Virus record (IMG/VR): IMGVR_UViG_3300028591_000090
Span: 119,631 to 183,630 of that record
DNA: 64,000 bases
From: a virus
Taxonomy: Duplodnaviria; Caudoviricetes
Direction: 5' to 3' (one strand)
The notes beneath the pieces were generated by a model that was given only the letters and a program-made list of their open reading frames with translations, ran no database searches and was not told the origin of the DNA. Within the stretch, counting starts at the first letter, position 1. Each line of letters starts with the position of its first letter. Position numbers and translations under genes: made by a program. Positions 42,232-59,155 of this stretch are shown here, piece by piece.

Positions 42232-42289
42232 AATCGTTTTTTCGTTCCCTTTTATTTATTTCTTATAATAAGGTAACGAAAAAACGATT
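42232..42289 (-). promoter_or_regulatory. 15-bp perfect inverted repeat with a late promoter in the loop
   Basis: AATCGTTTTTTCGTT (42232-42246) / AACGAAAAAACGATT (42275-42289); ATAAATA at 42253-42259 on the minus strand. Confidence 0.75.
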
Positions 42290-45348: not shown

Positions 45349-48300
45349 TTATTTATTCGTTAGATTAAGTTCCTTTTCGACGTTATCTATATATTCGTCT
45401 TTTTTAACAACGAAAATAGTCTTCTCATTTGTTATTTCATATTCATTACCACACGCATCTTTTGTGTAGTAAGATAAATCATAAGTTCCCTCATAATCAA
45501 AATGCCAAATAAAATACGGACAACCTCTCGTCATCATTAAAATCTTTCCAGTAACACTATCTTTTAACGTCCATCTAAATTCAACTTTTCTGTCTATATT
45601 ATCTACAAAGAAAATAAGATTCTTAAATGTCGGAACAACTATATTTTCTCTCTGAAATTTACTTGTTTGAAAATTTAAGAAATTTTCGTTGAATAATATT
45701 GGTAATCTTTTATCATAACCTTTTTCTACCATTGATTCATACGTTACGCTATCAAGATTAAGTATCTCATTAAAAGGAATATCCAAAGATAACAATGGAA
45801 TATATTTAGACAATCCCTCTTCTTTTAATCGTCTCTTTGCATATTCTCTCGAATCTCTCTGATATAAGAAAGTATAATCTTTATCAAGTTCACCGTTTCC
45901 AATAAGTTCTATAAACTGACAAGCATCTGCCGATACTGAATTTGCTGCGGCAACAATAACATTTGGTTCTGGATTAAATTTCTTCTGCTCGAAATCTACA
46001 TTATCACACAATGGCACATCATCGTAATCTGTTATACCCCAACTATGACAATAACTCAAATCAAAATGATATAAACCAAGAACTTTCATTATATTTTTCG
46101 GCAATATATCTTTCTTACCATTCAAATATTTAACAATATCCTTTGGTTTATCGTATTTTATTTCTATTTCTGTAGAACCAATCTTTAGAATATCACCCTT
46201 TTTAATGCCTCTCATTGCAAAACCGGGAACAAAATCGTGTGCAAAATAAGTATCACACGCTCTCAAATGGAACAAATCTCTTATTTGTGCATTTTTATAA
46301 ATGTTTGCTTGCATAGAAACACCATCACCGAATCCATATTGTTCTCTATTTACATTTGTTGTTTGTTTGTAATCTTCCCATTGATTTGTTTCAAAATTAT
46401 AAACTTCTGTTTTGTCAATCCAAGGAACGATTTTAAATGTATCTATAAGAGAATGTTGAATATCCAAATGTTTAGAACCGTCATTATTTAAAATATTAAC
46501 AACTGGTTTTTCTGCTGTTGAAAAAGCAAAGTCTTCAATTTTTACATTTGCTAAATTTTCAATAGTAAAATCAAACTTATCATCACCAATATAACCAACG
46601 ACAATTTCTGGATATTCACCTTTTACTTGTATTACATTATTCTTTGTTCTCTTTGTCATGTTTCCACTCATATCATATAGTTTAGCAGAAACACTATAAT
46701 AACCAACATATTGTAAGAATACTGGAAAATATAATCCATTCCAAATATTTGTTCTATAAGAATACAAAAATGTCTCTGGTCTCTTTGTACCATCAAGACA
46801 ATTACCAGGAACAAATTTAACAGACCATTCAATTTCAAGGAAATCCTTAAATTTTGCCGTGTTTACTCTCGAATTGTTTTCTACCTCTCTTGGTCTTTTG
46901 GCATAATCAGCCATTGAGGTATATTGTAAATCACTAATCTTCAATTCTGGAACATCTAATGAAAATACTACAGGACAACCAAATGATTTATGATTTTGAT
47001 ACATATTTTTCTTGAACTCTGTCAATGGTTCTTTCATTAAATCTGCAAAATCATCTGGGTATCTATCAAAATCTTGAGGCATATTCCATCTATCATTCAA
47101 ATTATAAGAATAAAAATCCTCAATCATTGCTTTATATTTTGGAATAGTAGAATCATCTAAATAATATCCCTTGTCAATATTTGGCAAACCTTTTATTCCA
47201 TAAGGATTTATGATTCTTGACGGAACATCTATATTTTCTTCATTTTCTTTCGGATAAAATGGATATAAATCTTGAACATACATTTGAATATCATTTGGAA
47301 ATACATTTATTCCGATATTATTATGCATAGAATCCACTTCATACGATTCAATTTGAATATCATCAACCCAAACTATCTTTGCAAAAGAAATATAATAAGT
47401 ATATTCACCAATAACATCTTTAATCTGTACATTTACTGGTAAAAATTGTTTTTGTAACAACTTTTTCAGTTTGTGTAGTTTATAAAACATTTCATTTGAC
47501 GTAAATTCTGTCGTTCTTTCAATTATAGGACATTCATTTTCGTCATATTCGCCAGTTTTTCTCGTAAATTCATAACAAAGAGCCAAGAAACCAGTTTTTC
47601 TAAAATATTCTGAATTTTTAACGCTTTTATTTTCACCCAATACGTTAAAATCATTAATTTCACCATCTTCCAACATAGAAGATACGCTCGTTATAATATA
47701 TTTTCCGTTATACAATGAAGATTTACGAATATCTTCCCAATACTCCTTTACATCAAGAACATCATTATATCCCAATAAAGAAATAAAGTTCTTCAAACCA
47801 TAATAAGTACCAACATAAGGGAATATTTCTTCTTGATTTACAACAAGTTCTTTTCGGATTGCATTAATTTGCTCCCAATCTGGCAATGCCTCGTTGATAT
47901 TATAATCTTTTAAACATAAAGAATCCGTTCTATTGAATTTTATACCAAAATTTTCAATGTGAACCCTAAATCTATCATCTTCTTCAAGACCTTCACCATA
48001 GAAATAGAACTGCCAACATAAAATTTTATCTCCATCGGCTGTATTGTAATAAATATTAAGTATTCTTTCGTATATAACCTCTTCCGATGGTGTAAAAGCA
48101 ATGTTTAACTGATAAGGAACTTTACCTACTTTTGTTCCTGGTATTCTTTTAAAATATCTTTTATCGTTTTCATACGATAAAACATCTTTTTTCTTTGGTT
48201 CAATATATGGATATTTTGTTTCTACGTCGGTTAAAACGTCAAATAAGAAGAAATTTTCTTCTTCATCATCTCCTGTTAAATCATTCCACTTAAATTCTAT

Positions 48301-48507
48301 ACTTTCACCGTCTTCTAATTGTGGAAAATAAAATCCGTCAGAAAATTCTTCAAGTAAAAAGATATTTAAACTATCATATAATGAAACAGAAAGTGGTTGA
48401 AGATATACTTCTGTATAGTTATATTCCTTACCATCATCTGTTTTCTTTTTTGTAAATTCAAATGGAAAACCCTCTTTGTCGTAAAATTTTATATTATCTA
48501 TAACCAT
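45349..48507 (-). CDS. Baseplate wedge protein (gp7/P2 gpI-like) with PKD-like domains
   Basis: VGTYYGLKNFISLLGY...VKEYW and LKKLLQKQFLPVNVQI; WHFDYEGTYDLSY PKD-like segment. Confidence 0.55.
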   Translation of the reverse strand: MVIDNIKFYDKEGFPFEFTKKKTDDGKEYNYTEVYLQPLSVSLYDSLNIFLLEEFSDGFYFPQLEDGESIEFKWNDLTGDDEEENFFLFDVLTDVETKYPYIEPKKKDVLSYENDKRYFKRIPGTKVGKVPYQLNIAFTPSEEVIYERILNIYYNTADGDKILCWQFYFYGEGLEEDDRFRVHIENFGIKFNRTDSLCLKDYNINEALPDWEQINAIRKELVVNQEEIFPYVGTYYGLKNFISLLGYNDVLDVKEYWEDIRKSSLYNGKYIITSVSSMLEDGEINDFNVLGENKSVKNSEYFRKTGFLALCYEFTRKTGEYDENECPIIERTTEFTSNEMFYKLHKLKKLLQKQFLPVNVQIKDVIGEYTYYISFAKIVWVDDIQIESYEVDSMHNNIGINVFPNDIQMYVQDLYPFYPKENEENIDVPSRIINPYGIKGLPNIDKGYYLDDSTIPKYKAMIEDFYSYNLNDRWNMPQDFDRYPDDFADLMKEPLTEFKKNMYQNHKSFGCPVVFSLDVPELKISDLQYTSMADYAKRPREVENNSRVNTAKFKDFLEIEWSVKFVPGNCLDGTKRPETFLYSYRTNIWNGLYFPVFLQYVGYYSVSAKLYDMSGNMTKRTKNNVIQVKGEYPEIVVGYIGDDKFDFTIENLANVKIEDFAFSTAEKPVVNILNNDGSKHLDIQHSLIDTFKIVPWIDKTEVYNFETNQWEDYKQTTNVNREQYGFGDGVSMQANIYKNAQIRDLFHLRACDTYFAHDFVPGFAMRGIKKGDILKIGSTEIEIKYDKPKDIVKYLNGKKDILPKNIMKVLGLYHFDLSYCHSWGITDYDDVPLCDNVDFEQKKFNPEPNVIVAAANSVSADACQFIELIGNGELDKDYTFLYQRDSREYAKRRLKEEGLSKYIPLLSLDIPFNEILNLDSVTYESMVEKGYDKRLPILFNENFLNFQTSKFQRENIVVPTFKNLIFFVDNIDRKVEFRWTLKDSVTGKILMMTRGCPYFIWHFDYEGTYDLSYYTKDACGNEYEITNEKTIFVVKKDEYIDNVEKELNLTNK

Positions 48508-48546: not shown

Positions 48547-49194
48547 CTATATATTGAAAATTTCACTATCATCATCTGTCTGGTCCAACTTAATAAACTC
48601 TACACCGTTGATATAGTCAAATTTAACTTCCATAAATTTAACATACGTAAAGTCTTTTTCTAATTCGTGCAAGAAAGATGTATCTCCCATTTTAATCTGT
48701 TTCCACTTACAATATCTACTTCCCTTAAAACGAATTTGAACCTTTTTTATATCTTTTTCTTTTACCTCATCAAGAATAGACATATAAACATTATTCAATT
48801 CTTTTGTAATATTCTCAATGTCAAATTCACAATCAAAATCAACACGATATAGTTTTGAAGACTTTACAAATCTATGTTTATGAATCATTTTGAATTGATT
48901 CGCATAACCATTGAAAACGAAACTTGAAAAGAATGAAAACGGGTCCGTATATAAATTTTCATCAAAATTTTTCCAATGTTTTAACATATCATATAAAGCA
49001 GCTTGAATACAATCCTCTTCATCTCTATAATCTGGATAATGTAAATTTCCATGACGTACTCCGTGTACCGCCATTTTAATAAAATAATCTACTGCCTTTT
49101 TTGTTAAACAATCTTGCTCTTTCGATTTTTTTATCTCATTATAAAAATCTTCTTTGTTAATGTTTAACTTGCTACCAATATGCTTGTATATCAT
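48547..49194 (-). CDS. Late-transcription sigma factor (T4 gp55-like)
   Basis: INKEDFYNEI...EDCIQAALYDMLKHWKNFDENLYTDPFSFFSSFVFNGY parallels the gp55 region-2 pattern NFDxxxYxNP(H/F)AYxTxxxFNAF. Confidence 0.75.
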   Translation of the reverse strand: MIYKHIGSKLNINKEDFYNEIKKSKEQDCLTKKAVDYFIKMAVHGVRHGNLHYPDYRDEEDCIQAALYDMLKHWKNFDENLYTDPFSFFSSFVFNGYANQFKMIHKHRFVKSSKLYRVDFDCEFDIENITKELNNVYMSILDEVKEKDIKKVQIRFKGSRYCKWKQIKMGDTSFLHELEKDFTYVKFMEVKFDYINGVEFIKLDQTDDDSEIFNI

Positions 49195-49214: not shown

Positions 49215-49910
49215 TTACTGCAAACTATTGTATATCTTCAATAGTGGCAATGTTGAATCTATAATGTCATTAAAAGGTGAACCTATATGTACTTCCCCTT
49301 TACTATTTACTTGTTTAATATAAGTTTCATATTCACAATTCTTTTTAATATAATTATAGAAATCATCTTCGGCTAATGATGGAATAATTGGCTGTTTAAT
49401 AAATGCTTCAAATATCTTATCTTTTTTAGCATTACCCTTACAACCTATTGCATTTTTTAATTCAGAAGGTGAAAATATGAAAAGTCTATTAACATCTGAT
49501 TTTAATAAATCAATCAAAATATCTCTTCTTATAATTCCAGTAAGAAAAGGTATATCAAAAGTAGACATACCTTTTGAACCATAACTCATACCTTCTATCC
49601 CTACTATACAATCAGAATCAAAACCTATCCTTTTACGAATAGAATTTATAAGTTTAGAAGAAACTTCAATATAATTTATTAATTTTTCTCTTTCATTCTC
49701 TGAATAACTATTATTACTATCCTTTTTTGAACGATTAGTATACTCTACTTCAAAATTAAAAACAGTACTCATCATATCATCAAAAAAATCCTTTTTTTTC
49801 GATGACAGTCCAGTATCATTGATTATCGAACCAAAATAAAAATCATCAAAATCTTTTGTAATAGTATACGAAGAATAATTTACTGATAAATCTAATCCTA
49901 TATAATACAT
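49215..49910 (-). CDS. ruvC: RuvC-like Holliday junction resolvase
   Basis: IGLDLS, VGIEGMSYGS, PSELKNAIGCKGNAKKDKI, NDIIDS. Confidence 0.85.
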   Translation of the reverse strand: MYYIGLDLSVNYSSYTITKDFDDFYFGSIINDTGLSSKKKDFFDDMMSTVFNFEVEYTNRSKKDSNNSYSENEREKLINYIEVSSKLINSIRKRIGFDSDCIVGIEGMSYGSKGMSTFDIPFLTGIIRRDILIDLLKSDVNRLFIFSPSELKNAIGCKGNAKKDKIFEAFIKQPIIPSLAEDDFYNYIKKNCEYETYIKQVNSKGEVHIGSPFNDIIDSTLPLLKIYNSLQ

Positions 49911-49964: not shown

Positions 49965-49999
49965 AAAAAAATTTCGCTTTAAAGGCGAAATTTTTTTTT
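49965..49999. terminator. Bidirectional terminator-like hairpin
   Basis: AAAAAAATTTCGC-TTTAAAG-GCGAAATTTTTTT. Confidence 0.6.
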
Positions 50000-50002
50000 A
50001 TG

Positions 50003-50197
50003 TATTCTATTTTACATTTTTTATATATAATAATAGAAAAATACAAAAAAAAGTAAATATTTACATTTTATTACTTTTTTATATATATATAATAAAAAAA
50101 TACAAAAAAAAGTAAACATAAATAAAAATATATCTTTCTCTATTATTCTATTTACATTTTTTATATATAATAACAGAGAAATACAAAAAAAAGTAAA
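50003..50197. repeat. Three ~46-55-bp AT-rich direct repeats, each self-palindromic; candidate replication origin
   Basis: Units 50003-50057, 50071-50116 and 50144-50197; consensus TTTAC(A/T)TTTTTT-ATATATAATAA...AAATACAAAAAAAAGTAAA. Confidence 0.8.
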
Positions 50198-50203
50198 AAC
50201 TGG

Positions 50204-50234
50204 TTTGTGGTTTGCAAAAAATTTTGTATTTTTG
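50204..50234 (+). promoter_or_regulatory. Bacteroidota sigma-A promoter
   Basis: TTTG, 19-nt spacer, TATTTTTG (50227-50234); abuts repeat unit 3. Confidence 0.75.
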
Positions 50235-50262
50235 CAAACAGATTGCATTAAATTTTAAAAAT

Positions 50263-52041
50263 ATGAATAAAAGTATAGAATGGATTCCTATTTCAGGAGA
50301 AGATAAAAAATATATTTCTGAAATTTCTTTTATAAAAGAATCTGGATTACCAAAAGGAATTATTAATAAAAAGTTAGCTGATGTTGGTGCTACATTTTTT
50401 ACAGCAAACTGTAATAGTAATTACATTATTGTTTGTCCCACTATTGATTTATTAAAAAGTATTTCTTCTGATAAAAATAATCTTTATCCAATTTTTGAAT
50501 GTTATTCAGGAATTTACGAAAAAGATTTTAATGACTTTATAGAAAAATATAATCCAAAATATATTAAAATTGCTGTAACATATGATAAATTTGAAAAAGT
50601 ATCTTCTTGGATAAATCCAAAAGAATTTAAAGTATTAGTAGATGAATATCATTTATTATTACAAACAGTTGATTATAGAGAAAGTGCAATTAGTTCTTTA
50701 TTTCAATCACTAGAACAATATGATTATGTAAGCTTTATAAGTGCTACACCAATTAATCCAAATTATGAGGTAAAGCAATTGTCAAAATTACCTCATTATG
50801 AAATACAATGGAATAAAACAGAAAATATAATTCCTTATAGAGCAAATACAACAAATGTGTTAAAAACATTAAAAAATTTTATAAAATCTTTTTTATCTCA
50901 AAAACTAAAAGCTATGAATGTTAATGGAGAATTAAAAGTTCCAGAAGAACTTTTTATTTTTCTAAATTCAGTCAATTCGATAAAACAAGTATGTGAAGAT
51001 TTACAATTAGATAAAGAAGATGTTAAAATATGCTGTTCTAATAAAATATCAAATAAAAAAATGTTAGACGGTTATGATATTCAAAATGTAATTGATAAAA
51101 ATAAAAAAATTAATTTTTTCACAAGTAAATGTTTTCAAGGTTGCAATTTATTCTCAAATAGTGGATTGATAATTGTTTGTTCAGATGGAGGAAGAAAATC
51201 AATGATGACTGATTTATCTTCTGATTTAGTACAAATTGCAGGAAGGCTTCGTTTTAATGATGAATATCAAAATGAGTTTAGAAATACAATGATTCATATT
51301 TTTAACACAAAAAACGACGTTGAAAGCGATGAAGAATTCGAGGTTCATATGTTAGAATTAAAAAAAGTGTGTAATGATTTAATAACAATTCAAAACAATA
51401 ATCCTGAGCAAGCACAATCTATGATTTCAAGATTAAATCTTACTAATGATATTGTTGTTGTTGACGATTCAGGAAAATTAGTTTATTCTGAAAATAAAGA
51501 AATGTATTTTAGATATTTTCATGATTTAAAGAAAACTTATAAAAATGGCATAAACATAAGAAAATCATATAATAAAGAAAATTTTGAAATAATAAATCAG
51601 GTTAAATTTATTGAAAACAAAAAAACATTTGAAGATGATATAAAAAGATTTTCTTCTGTAAGTTATAAAGATTTATTGATTGATTTTTATGAAGCAACAA
51701 ATAAAGAGCAATATATTGTAGAAAATCCAGAGTTTGCAGATTATTATAAATATTTAACACTAAAAGAAGTTCATTCTATGCAGTATAGTAAAGAAAGGTT
51801 GACTATTGCTGTTAATGATAAAAAAAGATTAGCTTCAATTATAGATAGATCATTAAAAATAGGTTTTATGCCTGCAAGTGAAATTAAACAACGATTAAAA
51901 GAAGAGTTTGAAAAAGAAGGCATTACTATAACACCAAAAGCAAGTCTTGTAGAAAAATCAGATAATTATACTGCAACTTTATTAAATAAATTATACAATG
52001 GAAAGGTAGTAAAAGGGTATTTTATTGTCGAAAAAAATTAA
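50263..52041 (+). CDS. SF2 (DExH) helicase with a C-terminal putative DNA-binding domain; origin-binding-protein candidate
   Basis: Start re-assigned to ATG 50263. Atypical motif I NKKLADVGAT, IIVCPT, LVDEYH, ISATP, FQGCNL, QIAGRLR. Confidence 0.8.
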   Translation: MNKSIEWIPISGEDKKYISEISFIKESGLPKGIINKKLADVGATFFTANCNSNYIIVCPTIDLLKSISSDKNNLYPIFECYSGIYEKDFNDFIEKYNPKYIKIAVTYDKFEKVSSWINPKEFKVLVDEYHLLLQTVDYRESAISSLFQSLEQYDYVSFISATPINPNYEVKQLSKLPHYEIQWNKTENIIPYRANTTNVLKTLKNFIKSFLSQKLKAMNVNGELKVPEELFIFLNSVNSIKQVCEDLQLDKEDVKICCSNKISNKKMLDGYDIQNVIDKNKKINFFTSKCFQGCNLFSNSGLIIVCSDGGRKSMMTDLSSDLVQIAGRLRFNDEYQNEFRNTMIHIFNTKNDVESDEEFEVHMLELKKVCNDLITIQNNNPEQAQSMISRLNLTNDIVVVDDSGKLVYSENKEMYFRYFHDLKKTYKNGINIRKSYNKENFEIINQVKFIENKKTFEDDIKRFSSVSYKDLLIDFYEATNKEQYIVENPEFADYYKYLTLKEVHSMQYSKERLTIAVNDKKRLASIIDRSLKIGFMPASEIKQRLKEEFEKEGITITPKASLVEKSDNYTATLLNKLYNGKVVKGYFIVEKN

Positions 52042-52047
52042 GCAAAT

Positions 52048-52752
52048 ATGTTATATTTTATAGAAAGTTTTGGCTATTATAAAATAGGTTTTACGAATAA
52101 CTTAAAAGAAAGAATGAAGGCATATTCTTCTATGACACCAAAATTTACACTTATAGGAATAAGAAATGGAAATAAAGAAGAAGAACATATGTTTCATGTT
52201 TATTTACACGAATTTCGTCTTGGTAATAAAGAATGGTTTACAGGATTAAATAATGAAACAATTGAAAAACTTACCAAATTATTTAGCACTAACGAAAATA
52301 CTGATTTTTATTATGAAATAAAAGATATTGCTTATAAAAAAGAACATGAAGAACTTATAAATATTGGATTTCAGAATAAAATAAATTTATATTATGAAAG
52401 TAACTTTGATGAAAAATATGAAGATGATGATTTAAAAATATTTAAAGAATATTTAACACTTAAAGAAATAAATTCTTTAAGATATAATAAAGAAGAAATG
52501 AAAAAAGTTTGTGAAGATAAGAAAAGATTTGAAGATATTATTAATAGTGTTTTAGAAGAAGGATTTATGTCTTCTGCAAATATTAAACAAAAAATGTCAG
52601 TCGTTTTTTCTGAAAATAATATTTCTATTGCACCTAAAGCAACATTAATAGAAAAATCAACAACTTATGATATAAAGAAAACGAAAAAAATGAAAAACGG
52701 AGAAGTTATACATGGTTATTTGATTACAAAAAAACAAGATTCTTTATTTTAA
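52048..52752 (+). CDS. GIY-YIG (T5orf172/MUG113-type) nuclease fused to a copy of the helicase C-terminal domain
   Basis: LYFIE...YKIGFTNNLKERM...EEHMFH...KEWF. The C-terminal 92 aa align without gaps to the helicase C-terminus. Confidence 0.8.
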   Translation: MLYFIESFGYYKIGFTNNLKERMKAYSSMTPKFTLIGIRNGNKEEEHMFHVYLHEFRLGNKEWFTGLNNETIEKLTKLFSTNENTDFYYEIKDIAYKKEHEELINIGFQNKINLYYESNFDEKYEDDDLKIFKEYLTLKEINSLRYNKEEMKKVCEDKKRFEDIINSVLEEGFMSSANIKQKMSVVFSENNISIAPKATLIEKSTTYDIKKTKKMKNGEVIHGYLITKKQDSLF

Positions 52753-54158
52753 TGGGAAAAATTATTCAAACATATACACCGAAAGTAAAGAGAGGGAAAC
52801 CAAGATTTTTTGATTATTTTCCACCGAAAAAGAAACATGCTGTTCTTCGAGATTTATATGCAAGACGAAAAAAGATAATAAACATAAGAAATCTTCGCCC
52901 TTTTAGAAAAAGGAAAATCTATAATGCTTTTTATAGAGGGTGTTATTTTTTTGCAAAAGGTAAGGAACATTTAATTAAAGAAGAATATTCTTATATACAA
53001 GAATTTTCTGTTTTCATTGAAACAATTAAAAACATAAAAGAAGATGCAAAGAGAGTTGATGTTATAAAAGAATATATTTCAAATCCTTTGGTAAATTACT
53101 ATCTTCGTTTATGTTATGATCCACATTCAATGAAAATCATTTTTACTTTCAGTAAGTATTTTTATGATGTCAATTACAAAAGTTGTGTTAGTAAATTTTT
53201 TGTTCCGTCTTTTACAGAAGTAGAAGAAAAATTTTACGATGATACAATAGGGAAATACGACAAAAAGAAATATATTATGACTTATGTCGTATTCTATGGT
53301 AAGAAGCATGAAATGAGAGAAATTTTATTAAAACTTACAGACAATTCTGGTTTTTGTTCTATTAAAAAAGAAAAAATAAACGAAGCAATTGGAAGTACCA
53401 TTATCAATGAGTTTAAGATTCGTAGTGGAGAAAAAATGTTACCGAGAGAAATATTACGGAAATTAGATACAATAGAAAATTATTTTGTCGTAAAAAGACC
53501 ATTAGGTGTTAGGGCTTTTGTCGTTATAGATGGGCTTGGTCGTTTAAATGTATTTGCTCAATCTATGAGAAAAGGCGAATTTGTTAGATTAAAACAAAAG
53601 TATATTGATGCTATTTATAAGCAATTTTTTGTGTTTAAAAATGTCGTTTTTGAATGTTTTGTTAGTACAATCGATGAAGAAAATAATATTACCAAAAATA
53701 TAAACGCTCAATATTTGAGTAATCAAAGACGATTGAAAAAATATAATCTTGATAATGTTCATTTCTTTGTATATGACGTATTAACATTTAACGAATATAA
53801 ACAAGGATATAGTGAACTTACATATGCAGAAAGAAGAGAAAAATTAGAATCTTTATTTCAAGACAAAGAACTCCCAAATATGCATTTATGTGAGGGTACA
53901 CAATTAAAAGATAAACAACATTTAATTTCTTTTGCTTCTTTGGCACAAGAATTTGACGGTAAGGATTATTGGGACGGATTGCAATTTATTCCAAATGGTG
54001 AGTATGATATTAAAGATAACATTCCAGAGATTTTTACTCGTTCATATATCGAAAAAACGTATGATTATAATATCCATGCTCGTGAAAACAGAGAAAAACG
54101 ACTAAATAAAATAATAGAAGGATACAGAAAAAAAAGACAGTCTCTAACGTGCCTATAG
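52752..54158 (+). CDS. ATP-dependent DNA ligase-like protein, degenerate
   Basis: YLRLCYDP, KINEAIGSTII, VVKRPLGVRA (motif I), VFECF (III), HFFVYDVL (IIIa), YAERREKL, WDGLQF (IV). No OB domain. Confidence 0.65.
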   Translation: MGKIIQTYTPKVKRGKPRFFDYFPPKKKHAVLRDLYARRKKIINIRNLRPFRKRKIYNAFYRGCYFFAKGKEHLIKEEYSYIQEFSVFIETIKNIKEDAKRVDVIKEYISNPLVNYYLRLCYDPHSMKIIFTFSKYFYDVNYKSCVSKFFVPSFTEVEEKFYDDTIGKYDKKKYIMTYVVFYGKKHEMREILLKLTDNSGFCSIKKEKINEAIGSTIINEFKIRSGEKMLPREILRKLDTIENYFVVKRPLGVRAFVVIDGLGRLNVFAQSMRKGEFVRLKQKYIDAIYKQFFVFKNVVFECFVSTIDEENNITKNINAQYLSNQRRLKKYNLDNVHFFVYDVLTFNEYKQGYSELTYAERREKLESLFQDKELPNMHLCEGTQLKDKQHLISFASLAQEFDGKDYWDGLQFIPNGEYDIKDNIPEIFTRSYIEKTYDYNIHARENREKRLNKIIEGYRKKRQSLTCL

Positions 54159-57100
54159 ATATTAATAACTATATTGATATAAGAGTAGATAAAAAAACAC
54201 CAGAGGATATTGCTTCCGATATTGAAAGGATGCAAAATGACCTTATTAACGAATATAACGAAAACACAACAACACAATGGGATTGTGATAATGTAAGAAA
54301 AGAGGCTTTTTTTTCACAAGATATTACAGATAATGTTTGTGAACCGCCACAACCTGATTTTGCAGAGCCAGAGCCATTAGAAGAACCAGAAATAACAGAT
54401 TATGCTGAATGTGCTAGTGATATGGCTAATGCAGTAGAAGAAATTGGTGAAGAATTGTCTGAAAAGGCACAATTATATGCAAAAACAATAGAATGTGTAA
54501 ACTATCTTGACGAATGGCTTAAAAACCTTGAGCCTGTATATGAATATAATAAAACAAAAATATCACAAAACAAAAAAGTATACAACAGTTTAGACGAAGC
54601 AACAGGACTTGCTTTATTAACAGACTTACAAACAAGAGGTGCAGGAAAGATTCTTATTGCACTAAAAGAATGGTCTCAATTATTGGGACTTGATATGGAT
54701 ATAAGATATAGAGGTAAAGTTATTTTTGGATTCAAATTCAGATACCAATACAAGAAAGAATTACAAGAAAAGATAACAGATATTCAAAAGGTATATTCTG
54801 ATATTGGTTTACCAGATTTTTTGAATGATTCGAGAGACTTACGATATGAAAAATATGTACAAGAAAATGCCGTTGGATATTTGTATGATAAGTATTATGC
54901 TCTAATGCAACACCCGATAGATAATTTCTTTACACCAGCAGAACGAGGTTTGGTTAAAAACACGAAGAATGCATATCATATGCCAATCAACGAAGATATG
55001 AAAGAATATATCAAAGATGATAAGGTTGCCGTTGAGGTATATGGAAGTAATGGAGAATCTTCAACGTATTATGTTGGTGACGATGAAAAAATTGTAAACG
55101 GTAAAACAAATTATAAAAGATACCAAGAGTTTTTTGAATCGACATTTAAGAATGAATTTGAAAAAAGATGTGATAAGAAATATGAAGAAATAAAGAAAAA
55201 ACTTGCATATAAAACAATACTCGCTTTATTAAAAACAGCTGCTGTAGAAGAAGCGACACTTATTTCTAAAAGTTCTGAATCATTTAAATCTTCTCAAACT
55301 TTTGTAGAAAAATACGAAAAGGTTGCTAAATTACAGAAAAGATTAAAAGACATAAAAAATGAAATTGCAGAATCTTTTTCTCAAGAAAAAATAAAAGAAC
55401 AAGTTGCTAATGTTGATTGTTTTAAGGCAGGAAATATCGAAGAAGCACCTTTTGTAGAACCAGATTTTTCTTATGGATTAAATGACCCGACATTACCAAA
55501 TATTAAAAAGATTTGTTATTGGATAAAGTTTTGTGAATGTGCAACAATATACAATTTAACATCTCCATATATCGAACTTGTTTCTACTGATATAGATAAG
55601 AGAAGTGGATTACCATATCTTATGAACAGTATGAGATATTGGGCTGTTGGTTTTATATGTCCGTCTCCTGCTGGACTTGTAAAAGTTCCATTGCCTGCAA
55701 TATTTGTTCCTTTGTATTGTCTTGCAACACCAATGGGAATACTTGTTTTGTTCTTACAAATGAATGGAATATTCCCAACTTTGTCTCTTATGTTTATTGC
55801 TAATGATATGTCTATATCTATGGCTGCTACAGCAAGTTGTCAAGGATTAACATACGGTAATGACCCATTTAATTTTACTGATGATGATGAAACAAACCTT
55901 TTGTCTATAATTGGAATGGATAAAAGTTATAAAGTTCCTTTTATGACACCAGATGAGTTAAAAACTTTTATTCCAGATAGAACAAATGCACTTATTGCAT
56001 ATGCAGAAAAAAAAGCCGAAAATGGATATGCAAGAATTTATGATTTTATAGAAGAAAAAAATCTTGAACTGTGGGAAAAATATGAAATGCTTAAAAGAGC
56101 ACAAAATGGTGATTTTGATATAGAAGACGAATTAAAGAAAATAAGAAATATCTTTAATGACGCTCTCGATATGGTAAACTTTGAGGCAATAGAAGATAAG
56201 GCATTTGAAAGTATTGATGATGTAAGAAAATTTGTAAGAGATATTTTGTACAGTTTTGATTTACCAACAATAACTCTACCTGATAATTTATGTGAAGTAG
56301 ATCCTCAAAATCCACTAACAGAACTTGTTAAAAGAGTTACAGATTTGTTAAATTCAAAAGTTGGCTTACAAGTAAAACCGTCAGATTTAAGAACTGTTGT
56401 TGTTCAAATATTATATGATTGTTTATACAATCCAAAGATAAACAATTTATTAAGAAGATTACCAGAAAAATTAAAGTTTATCAATACACCATTAAGCAGA
56501 TTACAAGAACTTGCTGCTAAAGGTGGTGAACTCGGTGAAAAAGCAAAAATATCTATTAATGAATTTCAAAAATGTGAAGGTGAGTTTGCAGAACTTAAAA
56601 AGGTTTTATGTGAAATTATTGATACAGCAACTCTGTTGATAGACCCAAATATTTTCTATTCTGATGAAAGATTTTTGAAATTACTTGGATTCTTATCAAT
56701 GGATTTCAATGCTTATAATTGTAGAACAGAACTTGATAATCCAAATATACCAGCATTGGATTTTCTATTTGCTTTAGCACAAATAATTAAAGCAACAATA
56801 GAATCAATGAAATTGGCTGATTTCTTACAAATGATTTCAACAATCAATATCGAAAATAAAGAACTTGAAGCAGTAGAATTTGCAAGACGGTTCGTTCTTT
56901 CTCTTCTTACCGATATTGTAAAAAAATATGTCCCAGAAATTCCAATTATAGACCCGACAACATTACAACTTATGTTAGGTTCTTTAACACAATCATATAA
57001 AAAGATAGCAAAAATCTGCGTTCTATTAACTCAAGTTGATTTGAAAGATGCAAGGGATTTTATTCTTAATATGTTGCCAAAGATTGTTATTGATTTGAAT

Positions 57101-57733
57101 ATGTATAGAGATTTGCTTGTAGAACCTATTATGCAATTTATAGAAGAATATCTTCAAAAAACAGAACAAGCAATATCAGATTTAAGTCCAGTATATTACC
57201 GTGAAATGATACGTAAAGAAATTAATATGTTTTTCGACGAAACAAATGTTTTACTTAAACCAGTTATCGAAACATATAATATGGCAGTTAATACATTTAA
57301 GTTATTAAAGAAATTAAAAGACTTAAAACTTAATTTTAATACTGTTGATATGGCATTAAGACCAAAAACTGTTGCTAAAAAGTTAGCAGAAGCAATGCAG
57401 AATGTAAATTGGAAAAATGAAGTCCTTAAAATGTTAGGTCTTGATGGTATTCCCACTATTGACTTAAATTTGGCTGAACTTGCTATCTTGGCTATGAAAG
57501 TATTTGGCGTTTCATTTAATCACTTTGTTGTGTCTGCTGTATGCTGTTTGTCTGGTGAGCCGGGAAAACAAATGATTCGTGTTTTACATCCAATTGCTTT
57601 TTGTGATGATTTACCACCATATGAAAGATTAAATTTACTTAATCCTTTATTTTGTTTGTTTTTGGATAGTTTTTGTTATGAATCGAAGAAATATGGTGGA
57701 TATTGTTCTAATTTTTTACCAATCGGCACGTAA
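54149..57733 (+). CDS. Large hypothetical protein (1194 aa) with a central hydrophobic, Pro-rich segment
   Basis: GTG start; helical; WAVGFICPSPAGLVKVPLPAIFVPLYCLATPMGILVLFL. Confidence 0.6.
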   Translation: MPIDINNYIDIRVDKKTPEDIASDIERMQNDLINEYNENTTTQWDCDNVRKEAFFSQDITDNVCEPPQPDFAEPEPLEEPEITDYAECASDMANAVEEIGEELSEKAQLYAKTIECVNYLDEWLKNLEPVYEYNKTKISQNKKVYNSLDEATGLALLTDLQTRGAGKILIALKEWSQLLGLDMDIRYRGKVIFGFKFRYQYKKELQEKITDIQKVYSDIGLPDFLNDSRDLRYEKYVQENAVGYLYDKYYALMQHPIDNFFTPAERGLVKNTKNAYHMPINEDMKEYIKDDKVAVEVYGSNGESSTYYVGDDEKIVNGKTNYKRYQEFFESTFKNEFEKRCDKKYEEIKKKLAYKTILALLKTAAVEEATLISKSSESFKSSQTFVEKYEKVAKLQKRLKDIKNEIAESFSQEKIKEQVANVDCFKAGNIEEAPFVEPDFSYGLNDPTLPNIKKICYWIKFCECATIYNLTSPYIELVSTDIDKRSGLPYLMNSMRYWAVGFICPSPAGLVKVPLPAIFVPLYCLATPMGILVLFLQMNGIFPTLSLMFIANDMSISMAATASCQGLTYGNDPFNFTDDDETNLLSIIGMDKSYKVPFMTPDELKTFIPDRTNALIAYAEKKAENGYARIYDFIEEKNLELWEKYEMLKRAQNGDFDIEDELKKIRNIFNDALDMVNFEAIEDKAFESIDDVRKFVRDILYSFDLPTITLPDNLCEVDPQNPLTELVKRVTDLLNSKVGLQVKPSDLRTVVVQILYDCLYNPKINNLLRRLPEKLKFINTPLSRLQELAAKGGELGEKAKISINEFQKCEGEFAELKKVLCEIIDTATLLIDPNIFYSDERFLKLLGFLSMDFNAYNCRTELDNPNIPALDFLFALAQIIKATIESMKLADFLQMISTINIENKELEAVEFARRFVLSLLTDIVKKYVPEIPIIDPTTLQLMLGSLTQSYKKIAKICVLLTQVDLKDARDFILNMLPKIVIDLNMYRDLLVEPIMQFIEEYLQKTEQAISDLSPVYYREMIRKEINMFFDETNVLLKPVIETYNMAVNTFKLLKKLKDLKLNFNTVDMALRPKTVAKKLAEAMQNVNWKNEVLKMLGLDGIPTIDLNLAELAILAMKVFGVSFNHFVVSAVCCLSGEPGKQMIRVLHPIAFCDDLPPYERLNLLNPLFCLFLDSFCYESKKYGGYCSNFLPIGT

Positions 57734-59050: not shown

Positions 59051-59155
59051 GTGTTAATCAAATCGTTAAAGTTTTTGATAATATCAAACAAAAACGATAA
59101 ATAACAAAAAGTTTAAATATAATTTTAGGAATGTTTAAAATTTTTTACAGAAAAC

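What the first reader, a model, noticed from the sequence alone, without database searches (positions are those of the whole stretch)
50003..50197. Each repeat is an inverted box-AT core-box unit at the main strand switch
Seen: each unit opens with TTTAC(A/T)TTTTTT and closes with its near reverse complement AAAAAAAGTAAA around an ATATATAAT core. Units 1 and 3 are 140 bp apart and differ at few positions. An extra half-site is at about 50060 and an ATAAATA motif at 50118-50124. Genes to the left are mostly minus-strand and those to the right are all plus-strand. Known: HSV oriS has two inverted initiator boxes flanking an AT spacer. Inference: this is a replication origin or an autoregulatory operator array for the helicase.
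Basis: partly seen in the sequence, partly recalled or inferred. Interest (0 to 1): 0.7.

Follow-up and report, generated by a model that had tools for sequence, protein, structure and literature searches.

The report
Helicase-linked dyad repeat array in phage
Three copies of a 47-base, very AT-rich, two-fold-symmetric DNA element lie just before a helicase gene of a large Bacteroidota phage, and relatives keep the same kind of element before the same gene, so it is a real control site, either a start signal for transcription or a replication origin, and sequence alone does not settle which.

Summary
There are three ~47-nt units at 50011-50057, 50070-50116 and 50151-50197. They share an exact 19-mer found nowhere else in the 183.6-kb contig, and the array is the most AT-rich, least stable DNA of that contig.

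The units are not an isolated oddity. They align with a dyad-symmetric element (box + T-run, TATA-like core, A-run + inverted box) found next to homologues of the same SF2 helicase. These homologues occur in large phages, small temperate phages and integrative elements of Bacteroidales, with one to four copies of the element.

- **For a promoter:** in most relatives a sister form of the element follows an intrinsic terminator, lies about 66 nt before the helicase start, and also heads short non-coding units.
- **Origin case weakened:** GC skew mainly follows gene orientation. In a complete 212-kb relative the array stays with the helicase, about 6 kb from the main strand switch.
- **Origin case not excluded:** the array is a single locus in two large contigs, melts easily, has conserved inverted boxes, and the helicase carries a C-terminal winged-helix domain.

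My reading is a regulated promoter/operator array (0.4), an origin (0.3), or both. This is a new variant of known kinds and of moderate interest.

The parts
49965..49997 (.). Terminator-like hairpin with an A-run on one side and a T-run on the other, so it could act in both directions. It lies between the divergent gene and the array.
   Evidence: 15-pair stem followed by a T-run, 1 found against 0.0 expected.: -12.2 kcal/mol, z -5.5.
50011..50057 (+). Repeat unit 1: left box + T6, AT-only core with a TATAAT-like centre, then A8 + right box.
   Evidence: Aligns with type-A dyad elements of relatives (A2).
50060..50069 (+). Extra left half-site directly before unit 2.
50070..50116 (+). Repeat unit 2, 77% identical to unit 1. 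Its 3' 19-mer is identical to those of units 1 and 3.
50117..50126 (+). Match to this phage's late-promoter motif (ATAAATAA), between units 2 and 3. It lies 139 nt before the start codon, whereas the usual distance is 25-35 nt.
   Evidence: define the motif and its usual position. A chance match in this AT-rich DNA is not excluded.
50151..50197 (+). Repeat unit 3, 96% identical to unit 1.
50204..50234 (+). Host-type (Bacteroidota) promoter: TTTG, 19 nt, then TATTTTTG. It ends 29 nt before the helicase start codon.
   Evidence: 39 such sites in the contig against 2-14 in shuffles, with 23 lying close upstream of a same-strand ORF, this one included.
50210..50239 (.). Perfect 11-nt inverted repeat overlapping the host-type promoter. 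The palindromic 8-mer TTTGCAAA occurs twice. It may be an operator, or only a by-product of the two promoter elements.
   Evidence: -10 kcal/mol, z -3.4.
50263..52041 (+). SF2 helicase of 592 aa. The motor core spans about residues 10-460, followed by a helical linker and a C-terminal winged-helix-like domain at about 522-592.
52048..52752 (+). GIY-YIG (T5orf172/MUG113) nuclease. Its residues 44-229 match the last ~180 residues of the helicase.
   Evidence: 33% identity, E 8e-25.
49215..49910 (-). Divergent neighbour, a RuvC-like resolvase.
   Evidence: phrog_159, E 8.5e-8.
48547..49194 (-). gp55-like late sigma factor gene.
   Evidence: phrog_234, E 3.2e-8.

Best explanation
The array is three tandem copies of a lineage-conserved control element that travels with this helicase gene.

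Each unit is an AT-rich, TATA-like promoter-type core bracketed by a T-run and an A-run and by inverted boxes. The boxes are read on double-stranded DNA by a two-fold-symmetric protein.

The units most likely act as regulated transcription start or entry sites for the helicase/replication-gene unit. They sit upstream of, and add to, an ordinary host-type promoter.

**Shown:** the repeats, their uniqueness, their homology to elements of relatives, and the promoter-like context of the sister elements in relatives.

**Inferred:** that the units of this phage fire as promoters, which polymerase or factor reads them, and that a protein binds the boxes.

A transcription-primed origin of the T7 or T4 type, built on the same promoters, is compatible with this reading.
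For: 1. **Position in relatives.** 78 of 87 relatives' loci have the sister 'type B' element within 400 nt of the helicase start. In 72 it lies 40-110 nt away (median 66), always on the helicase strand.
2. **Terminators.** 47 of 60 distinct contexts have a strong hairpin plus T-run within 75 nt upstream, against 16 of 400 random positions.
3. **Non-coding units.** Two or three further copies at intervals of about 110-350 nt head ORF-less, nucleotide-conserved stretches, several of which end in a terminator.
4. **No other promoter.** In the relatives' leaders that I read, I saw no -7 motif (TAnnTTTG) between the terminator and the helicase start. A regex scan found no full host-type site there in the 22 loci printed, although such promoters occur elsewhere in those loci.
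5. **Homology of the units.** The units here align with the 'type A' form of the element (A2). Unit 3 lies 42 nt upstream of a leader motif shared with the commonest group of relatives, which is the same distance as their element (read by eye).
6. **Same design elsewhere in this genome.** Two other sites have T-run/A-run inverted arms enclosing a predicted late promoter, at 42232-42289 and 59066-59116.
7. **Dyad symmetry.** It is kept through changes in both arms: 81.6% paired against 73.6% in shuffles, covariation score 0.218 against 0.096, 0 of 500 shuffles as high. There is no excess of G-T over A-C mismatches, which points to recognition on DNA rather than an RNA fold.
Against: 1. The units match none of the promoter classes readable in this genome. 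These are the host -33/-7 type, the ATAAATA late type and the type B profile.
2. The element occurs at one locus only, both in this 183.6-kb contig and in the complete 212-kb relative. That is odd for a promoter class.
3. In two relatives (L051, L061) a type A copy is followed within about 10 nt by a terminator. That makes little sense for a promoter.
4. The helicase here already has a good host-type promoter.
5. No transcript data exist.
Confidence: 0.4

Rival explanations
1. Replication origin. The dyad units would be iteron-like binding sites for an initiator, most simply the adjacent SF2 helicase through its C-terminal winged-helix domain. Their AT cores would be the unwinding element. Helicase plus element would form a rep-ori cassette that moves among Bacteroidales phages and integrative elements.
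For: - The element occurs at a single locus in two large contigs.
- The array ranks first in the contig for AT content (93% over 100 nt) and for lowest duplex stability at 100 and 200 nt.
- The helicase and the element are co-inherited across very different genomic backgrounds. These include small elements where the helicase lies next to an integrase.
- The box core is conserved between this phage, G001 and a Mariniphaga element.
- The last ~70 residues of the helicase fold as a winged helix. The best match is the Orc1/Cdc6 domain on origin DNA (Z 5.5), and the P4 origin-binding domain scores Z 4.4.
- At four-fold sites, genes oriented against their block lose the G excess: -0.058 against +0.258.
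- A type A copy followed at once by a terminator fits a binding site better than a promoter.
Against: - The sign of GC skew follows gene orientation. The four-fold-site test rests on only 223 sites.
- In G001 the array is about 6 kb from the main switch and skew minimum.
- Sister elements in relatives sit where promoters sit.
- The winged-helix matches are weak (Z < 6). RecQ-type SF2 helicases carry non-specific winged helices.
- The motor is a generic SF2 fold, and the HSV origin-binding protein is only one of at least 500 similar hits.
- Most relatives have a single copy rather than iterons.
Confidence: 0.3
2. Operator array only. The boxes would bind a regulator, either the helicase itself or another phage protein. 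That regulator would tune the host-type promoter at 50204-50234 and perhaps the divergent genes, with no start site and no origin function in the units.
For: - The dyad symmetry shows changes in both arms.
- The array lies between divergent transcription units.
- It is a single locus.
- Three tandem dyad sites between divergent genes recall lambda's right operator (from knowledge).
Against: - The half-sites are 36-42 nt apart centre to centre, which is far for a simple dimer.
- The conserved TATA-like core and the T/A runs would go unexplained.
- In relatives the type A copy can lie 0.3-1.8 kb from the helicase start, with terminators in between.
Confidence: 0.12
3. Transcribed hairpins. The units would work as RNA stem-loops, as processing, stability or attenuation signals, or as extruded single-strand DNA hairpins.
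For: - Relatives' units fold well as single strands, with z -4 to -5.7.
- In some relatives the type A copy lies between a stop codon and a terminator.
Against: - The units of this phage fold no better than shuffles, with z -0.3 to -1.5.
- There is no excess of wobble-type mismatches on the sense strand, 8 G-T against 16 A-C.
- Here and in G001 I saw no upstream same-strand gene or promoter that would transcribe the array.
- No Rfam family matches.
Confidence: 0.05
4. Another unique cis site, such as a packaging (pac) site or a recombination/resolution site, or a recent local duplication with no added function.
For: - It is a single locus.
- A RuvC-like resolvase and a GIY-YIG nuclease are neighbours.
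- Units 1 and 3 differ at only 2 of 47 positions, so the duplication is recent.
Against: - The linkage is to the helicase, not to terminase or recombinase genes, across relatives.
- Copy number above one arose independently in several lineages: G001 has 4 copies, L001 has 2 and L010 has 2.
Confidence: 0.06

Closest known systems
Iteron-type origins placed just upstream of their rep gene (plasmids F, P1, pSC101), and the dyad-symmetric iterons of lambda ori and of SaPI/PICI origins
   Same: Several direct repeats, each with internal symmetry, in very AT-rich DNA. They lie next to a replication protein gene whose own promoter carries an inverted repeat.
   Different: - The units are 47 nt, with half-sites 36 nt apart and a TATA-like core.
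- Most relatives have one copy.
- The neighbouring protein is an SF2 helicase, not a Rep/O-type initiator.
- Binding and replication are untested.
Herpes simplex virus oriS with the UL9 origin-binding SF2 helicase
   Same: Inverted boxes flank an AT spacer between divergent genes. An SF2 helicase carries a C-terminal DNA-binding part.
   Different: - The box sequences share nothing.
- The helicase core is only generically SF2-like; the HSV protein ranks 30th among near-equal hits.
- The C-terminal domain here is a small winged helix.
- Homology is not shown.
Promoter-based phage origins: the T7 primary origin (two tandem promoters plus an AT-rich stretch) and T4 oriF/oriG (middle promoter plus an unwinding element)
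   Same: Tandem promoter-like units in the most easily melted DNA, at the head of replication genes. Both of my leading readings would hold at once.
   Different: No phage RNA polymerase was found (PF00940 search empty, with a silent control). No transcript or R-loop data exist.
Tandem early promoters at the start of an early region (T7 A1-A3; the N4 hairpin promoters P1-P3)
   Same: Three closely spaced, co-oriented, locus-specific units. In N4 each has inverted-repeat character.
   Different: N4 hairpins are 5-7 bp stems with 3-nt loops read by a virion polymerase. Here the arms are 11-13 nt and 23-31 nt apart, and this phage otherwise uses host-type and gp55-type promoters.
Phage P4 alpha protein (primase-helicase with a C-terminal winged-helix origin-binding domain) with the repeats of ori and crr
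   Same: A helicase with a C-terminal winged helix and repeated short boxes in direct and inverted order near its gene.
   Different: P4 alpha is an SF3 helicase fused to a primase. The structural match of the domain is weak (Z 4.4).

Membership tests
Iteron-type replication origin | Three or more direct repeats of a candidate initiator site | tested here: met
   Three units share an exact 19-mer.
Iteron-type replication origin | Adjacent or embedded AT-rich unwinding element | tested here: met
   The array ranks first in the contig for AT content and for lowest duplex stability at 100 and 200 nt.
Iteron-type replication origin | Cognate initiator binds the repeats and supports replication | not testable with these tools
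   Only a winged-helix-like C-terminal domain on the neighbouring helicase is seen.
Iteron-type replication origin | Strand-composition inflection at the site, independent of transcription | tested here: inconclusive
   - The skew minimum is at the array, but its sign follows gene orientation.
- Four-fold sites hint at a block-level effect, on only 223 sites.
- In G001 the array is about 6 kb from the minimum.
HSV oriS / UL9 type origin | Inverted boxes flanking an AT spacer | tested here: met
   Symmetry is kept across relatives.
HSV oriS / UL9 type origin | UL9 recognition sequence in the boxes (G+C-containing box, recalled from the literature) | tested here: not met
   The boxes here are TTTACA plus a T-run. 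Each box holds a single C or G and has no such sequence.
HSV oriS / UL9 type origin | Helicase specifically related to UL9 | tested here: inconclusive
   9hgj_B appears at rank 30 with an E-value like those of hundreds of other SF2 proteins.
Bacteroidota primary-sigma promoter (-33 TTTG, -7 TAnnTTTG) | Both motifs present, 19-21 nt apart | tested here: not met
   None lies inside the units on either strand. The only site in this intergenic region is 50204-50234, downstream of the array.
gp55-type late promoter of this phage (ATAAATA, 25-35 nt before the start codon) | Exact motif at the usual distance | tested here: not met
   The unit cores differ from the motif at 3 positions. The exact copy at 50118-50124 lies between units and 139 nt from the start codon.
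Type B helicase-proximal element of relatives (profile built here) | Match to the profile (T-run + TTCA, TATA, GAAAAA blocks) | tested here: not met
   nhmmer finds no hit at the array, and only E > 0.6 hits elsewhere in the contig.
Type A dyad element of relatives | Inverted boxes of the ACATTTT type around a TTATA-like core, alignable over the full length | tested here: met
   In alignment A2 eight columns are invariant across 23 units from 18 loci.
Intrinsic terminator (hairpin 49965-49997) | G+C-containing stem followed by a T-run | tested here: met

The most novel reading that the evidence does not exclude
The SF2 helicase with its C-terminal winged helix would be a sequence-specific origin-binding initiator, and the dyad units its binding sites. 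The two would form a portable rep-ori cassette shared by large virulent phages, small temperate phages and integrative elements of Bacteroidales. This would be a bacterial-virus counterpart of the herpesvirus UL9/oriS system. The neighbouring GIY-YIG nuclease, which carries the same C-terminal module, would be aimed at the same DNA.
Probability: 0.22. Interest if true: 0.75.

Novelty: new variant of a known kind. Interest (0 to 1): 0.45.

Why it matters
How the abundant phages and integrative elements of gut Bacteroidales begin replication and early transcription is almost unknown.

This locus supplies a defined cis element of about 50 bp that travels with one helicase family across many such elements. 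It gives a concrete target for transcript-end mapping, binding assays and origin mapping.

If it is an origin, it could seed replicating vectors for Bacteroidales and would add an SF2-type initiator to bacterial viruses. If it is a promoter, it defines a promoter class outside the -33/-7 rule of this phylum, one that also drives a set of unstudied small RNAs.

Tried and rejected
- **Database similarity**
  - DNA-level similarity to deposited phages: none.
  - A single-protein scan of IMG/VR found no close relatives. An alignment-based scan was needed.
  - An exact 17-mer scan of IMG/VR gave 99 single, unrelated chance hits and no second array.
- Contigs of the closest helicase relatives (P0002 at 56%, P0003 at 51%) could therefore not be fetched.
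- **Known RNAs:** Rfam shows nothing at the array or in the relatives' non-coding units.
- **Phage polymerase:** the PF00940 search of the contig was empty, but the control was silent too, so this says little.
- **Neighbouring large proteins:** the 1194-aa and 1052-aa proteins have no PDB or Pfam match. The atlas look-up of the 1194-aa protein alone gave nothing usable.
- **E. coli-type promoters:** the sigma-70 scan of the region is at chance level, 11 found against 13 expected. This was rejected because the host uses other promoters.
- **Hairpin or cruciform:** rejected as the main property of this phage's units, which fold no better than shuffles.
- **Type B genome-wide:** a strict pattern search in five virus records gave one chance hit and was uninformative. 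Metagenome records could not be searched whole.
- **crAss-like virion-polymerase promoters:** considered early and dropped. The phage has myovirus tail genes and a gp55-like sigma, and the paper consulted reports no motif for such early promoters (doi 10.1101/2020.03.07.982082).

Full report
**What the window is.** The window is the last 64 kb of a single 183,630-nt virus contig with 29% G+C. The contig is classed as linear and about 69% complete.
- It encodes baseplate and tail-tube proteins, a gp55-like late sigma factor, a RuvC-like resolvase, NrdD/NrdG and a gp32-like SSB. It is therefore a large myovirus.
- Two promoter classes can be read from the sequence.
  - The Bacteroidota -33/-7 type occurs 39 times, against 2-14 in shuffles, and 23 of these sites lie close upstream of a same-strand ORF.
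  - ATAAATA(A) lies 25-35 nt before many late genes.
- The host is therefore a member of the Bacteroidota. This agrees with earlier notes e1-5779774 and e1-5779778.

**The observation.**
- The shared 19-mer is exact three times. It has no other match with up to 2 mismatches in the window (0.02 expected), and none with fewer than 3 mismatches in the contig.
- The 352-nt intergenic region is 86% A+T, and the array itself is 90% A+T.
- The array ranks first in the whole contig for AT content over 100, 200 and 350 nt, and for lowest nearest-neighbour duplex stability at 100 and 200 nt.
- Upstream lies a strong hairpin flanked by an A-run and a T-run.
- Downstream lies a consensus host-type promoter at 50204-50234, ending 29 nt before the helicase ATG at 50263.

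**The helicase.**
- The 592-aa protein matches no Pfam or PHROG family itself. It has more than a thousand homologues, some of which carry PF00270.
- An AlphaFold model (pLDDT 83.7) has a generic SF2 core, with Z 17-18 to DEAH, DinG and DEAD proteins.
- The last 115 residues, modelled alone (pLDDT 88.8), give only weak matches. These are uniformly winged-helix domains: the Orc1/Cdc6 domain on origin DNA at Z 5.5, and the P4 origin-binding domain at Z 4.4. This fixes the fold class, not the function.
- The last ~180 residues are shared with the adjacent GIY-YIG nuclease (33% identity, E 8e-25). This confirms and extends note e1-5779767.

**Relatives.** Alignment-based scans fetched 10 viral, 80 metagenomic and 36 genomic loci.
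- The helicase family occurs in three settings.
  - Large phages, such as G001 (212 kb, complete). G001 reads TAG as a sense codon, which raises its coding density from 52% to 91%.
  - Elements of about 28 kb carrying terminase, prohead protease, and serine or tyrosine recombinases.
  - Bacteroides, Prevotella and related chromosomes, in one case beside a tyrosine integrase.
- Almost everywhere the helicase is preceded by an element of one design: a box, a T-run, about 25 nt with a TATA-like centre, an A-run, and the inverted box.

**The proximal 'type B' form.** I built a profile of this form.
- It hits 78 of 87 loci within 400 nt of the start. In 72 of them it lies 40-110 nt away, with a median of 66 nt.
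- Many of these loci are near-identical. They amount to about 60 distinct contexts.
- Of those 60 contexts, 47 have a strong hairpin plus T-run just upstream, against 4% of random positions.
- In several lineages two or three more copies, all on the helicase strand, stand about 110-350 nt apart. They are followed by conserved, ORF-less stretches, several of which end in a terminator.
- In the relatives' leaders that I read, no -7 motif lies between the terminator and the helicase start, and a regex scan found no full host-type site there in the 22 loci printed. The relatives do use host-type promoters elsewhere.
- This is the context of a promoter.

**The 'type A' form.**
- It has well-conserved inverted boxes and is single-copy in many relatives, lying 0.3-1.8 kb upstream of the helicase.
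- The units of this phage and the four units of G001 align with it (A2).
- Across 23 units the two arms stay complementary through changes on both sides: 81.6% paired against 73.6%, with 0 of 500 shuffles reaching the observed covariation score.
- Mismatches show no wobble bias on the sense strand, and this phage's units do not fold better than shuffles. The symmetry is therefore more likely read on duplex DNA by a symmetric protein than as an RNA stem.
- In G001 the units occur only at the one locus, as they do here.
- A Mariniphaga element at 39% helicase identity has the same box 87 nt before its helicase. Relatives at 26-28% identity keep the design with other boxes.

**The skew argument.**
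- The cumulative GC-skew minimum of the contig falls in the 1-kb bin that holds the array.
- Plus-strand genes inside the minus block nevertheless have positive skew (+0.119 against -0.257 for their neighbours). The sign is therefore set by gene orientation.
- At four-fold degenerate sites, genes oriented against their block lose the G excess (-0.058 against +0.258). This hints at a block-level asymmetry, but it rests on only 223 sites.
- In G001 the helicase is a lone minus-strand gene with the array just upstream at 131.4-131.8 kb. The main switch and the skew minimum lie at 124.5-125.5 kb.
- The conserved partner of the array is the helicase gene, not the strand switch.

**Weighing the readings.**
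- Promoter and operator:
  - It is backed by the comparative context of the sister elements.
  - It is also backed by two other sites in this genome where the same T-run/A-run arms enclose a predicted late promoter (note e1-5779775).
- Origin:
  - It is backed by single-locus occurrence, extreme meltability, conserved boxes and co-inheritance with a helicase that ends in a winged helix.
  - It is also backed by relatives in which a type A copy is followed at once by a terminator.
- The two readings are compatible, as in the T7 and T4 promoter-origins.
- I give 0.40 to a regulated promoter/operator array, 0.30 to an origin, 0.12 to a pure operator, and the rest to RNA hairpins or another unique cis site.

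**Limits.**
- No transcript, coverage or binding data were available.
- The contig is incomplete.
- The split into types A and B is my own, and intermediates exist (L002, L004).

Noticed in passing
L044:200-1190, L058:1-785, L079:1500-2300, L083:2230-2930: Upstream of the helicase, several relatives carry two or three cassettes. Each is a type B element followed by about 150-300 nt of nucleotide-conserved, ORF-less sequence, and several end in an intrinsic terminator. They look like a cluster of unknown small RNA genes, and none matches Rfam.
   Followed up: partly
L009:9163-9566 (minus strand): A GOLLD RNA-like match (84.8 bits, E 1.6e-20, below the family's gathering score of 150) in the 212-kb relative, 1.4 kb beyond the end of the helicase gene. 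tRNA genes lie on the other side of the array.
   Followed up: no
G001 (L091-L101), and L001, L003-L006, L044-L053: Many relatives have in-frame TAG (some TGA) codons in the helicase. G001's coding density rises from 52% to 91% when TAG is read as sense. The window's own phage uses the standard code.
   Followed up: partly
L202:459-4746 and L203-L205, L210 (Bacteroides chromosomes): Helicase homologues at 41-44% identity sit in Bacteroides chromosomes. In B. faecis the gene lies directly after a 597-aa tyrosine integrase that abuts the host IMPDH gene, and a DUF3871 gene follows. This looks like an integrative element whose only visible replication protein is this helicase.
   Followed up: partly
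window 42232-42289 (minus strand) and 59066-59116 (plus strand): Two more sites where inverted arms with a T-run and an A-run enclose the late-promoter motif. They lie before the 1121-aa gene and before nrdD, and follow the same design as the array units.
   Followed up: partly
window 50210-50239: The palindromic 8-mer TTTGCAAA occurs twice, 20 nt apart, and forms a perfect 11-nt inverted repeat over the helicase's host-type promoter. It may be an operator or a by-product of the -33 and -7 elements.
   Followed up: no
window 50263-52752: The helicase (residues 410-591) and the neighbouring GIY-YIG nuclease (residues 44-229) share a C-terminal module ending in a winged-helix-like domain. It may be a shared DNA-targeting part, or a partial duplication left by nuclease-gene insertion.
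   Followed up: partly
window 54149-57733 and 45349-48507: Two large ORFs flank the locus, of 1194 and 1052 aa. The 1194-aa ORF has no match in Pfam, PHROGs or PDB sequences. The 1052-aa ORF matches only an uncharacterised PHROG, phrog_28177.
   Followed up: partly
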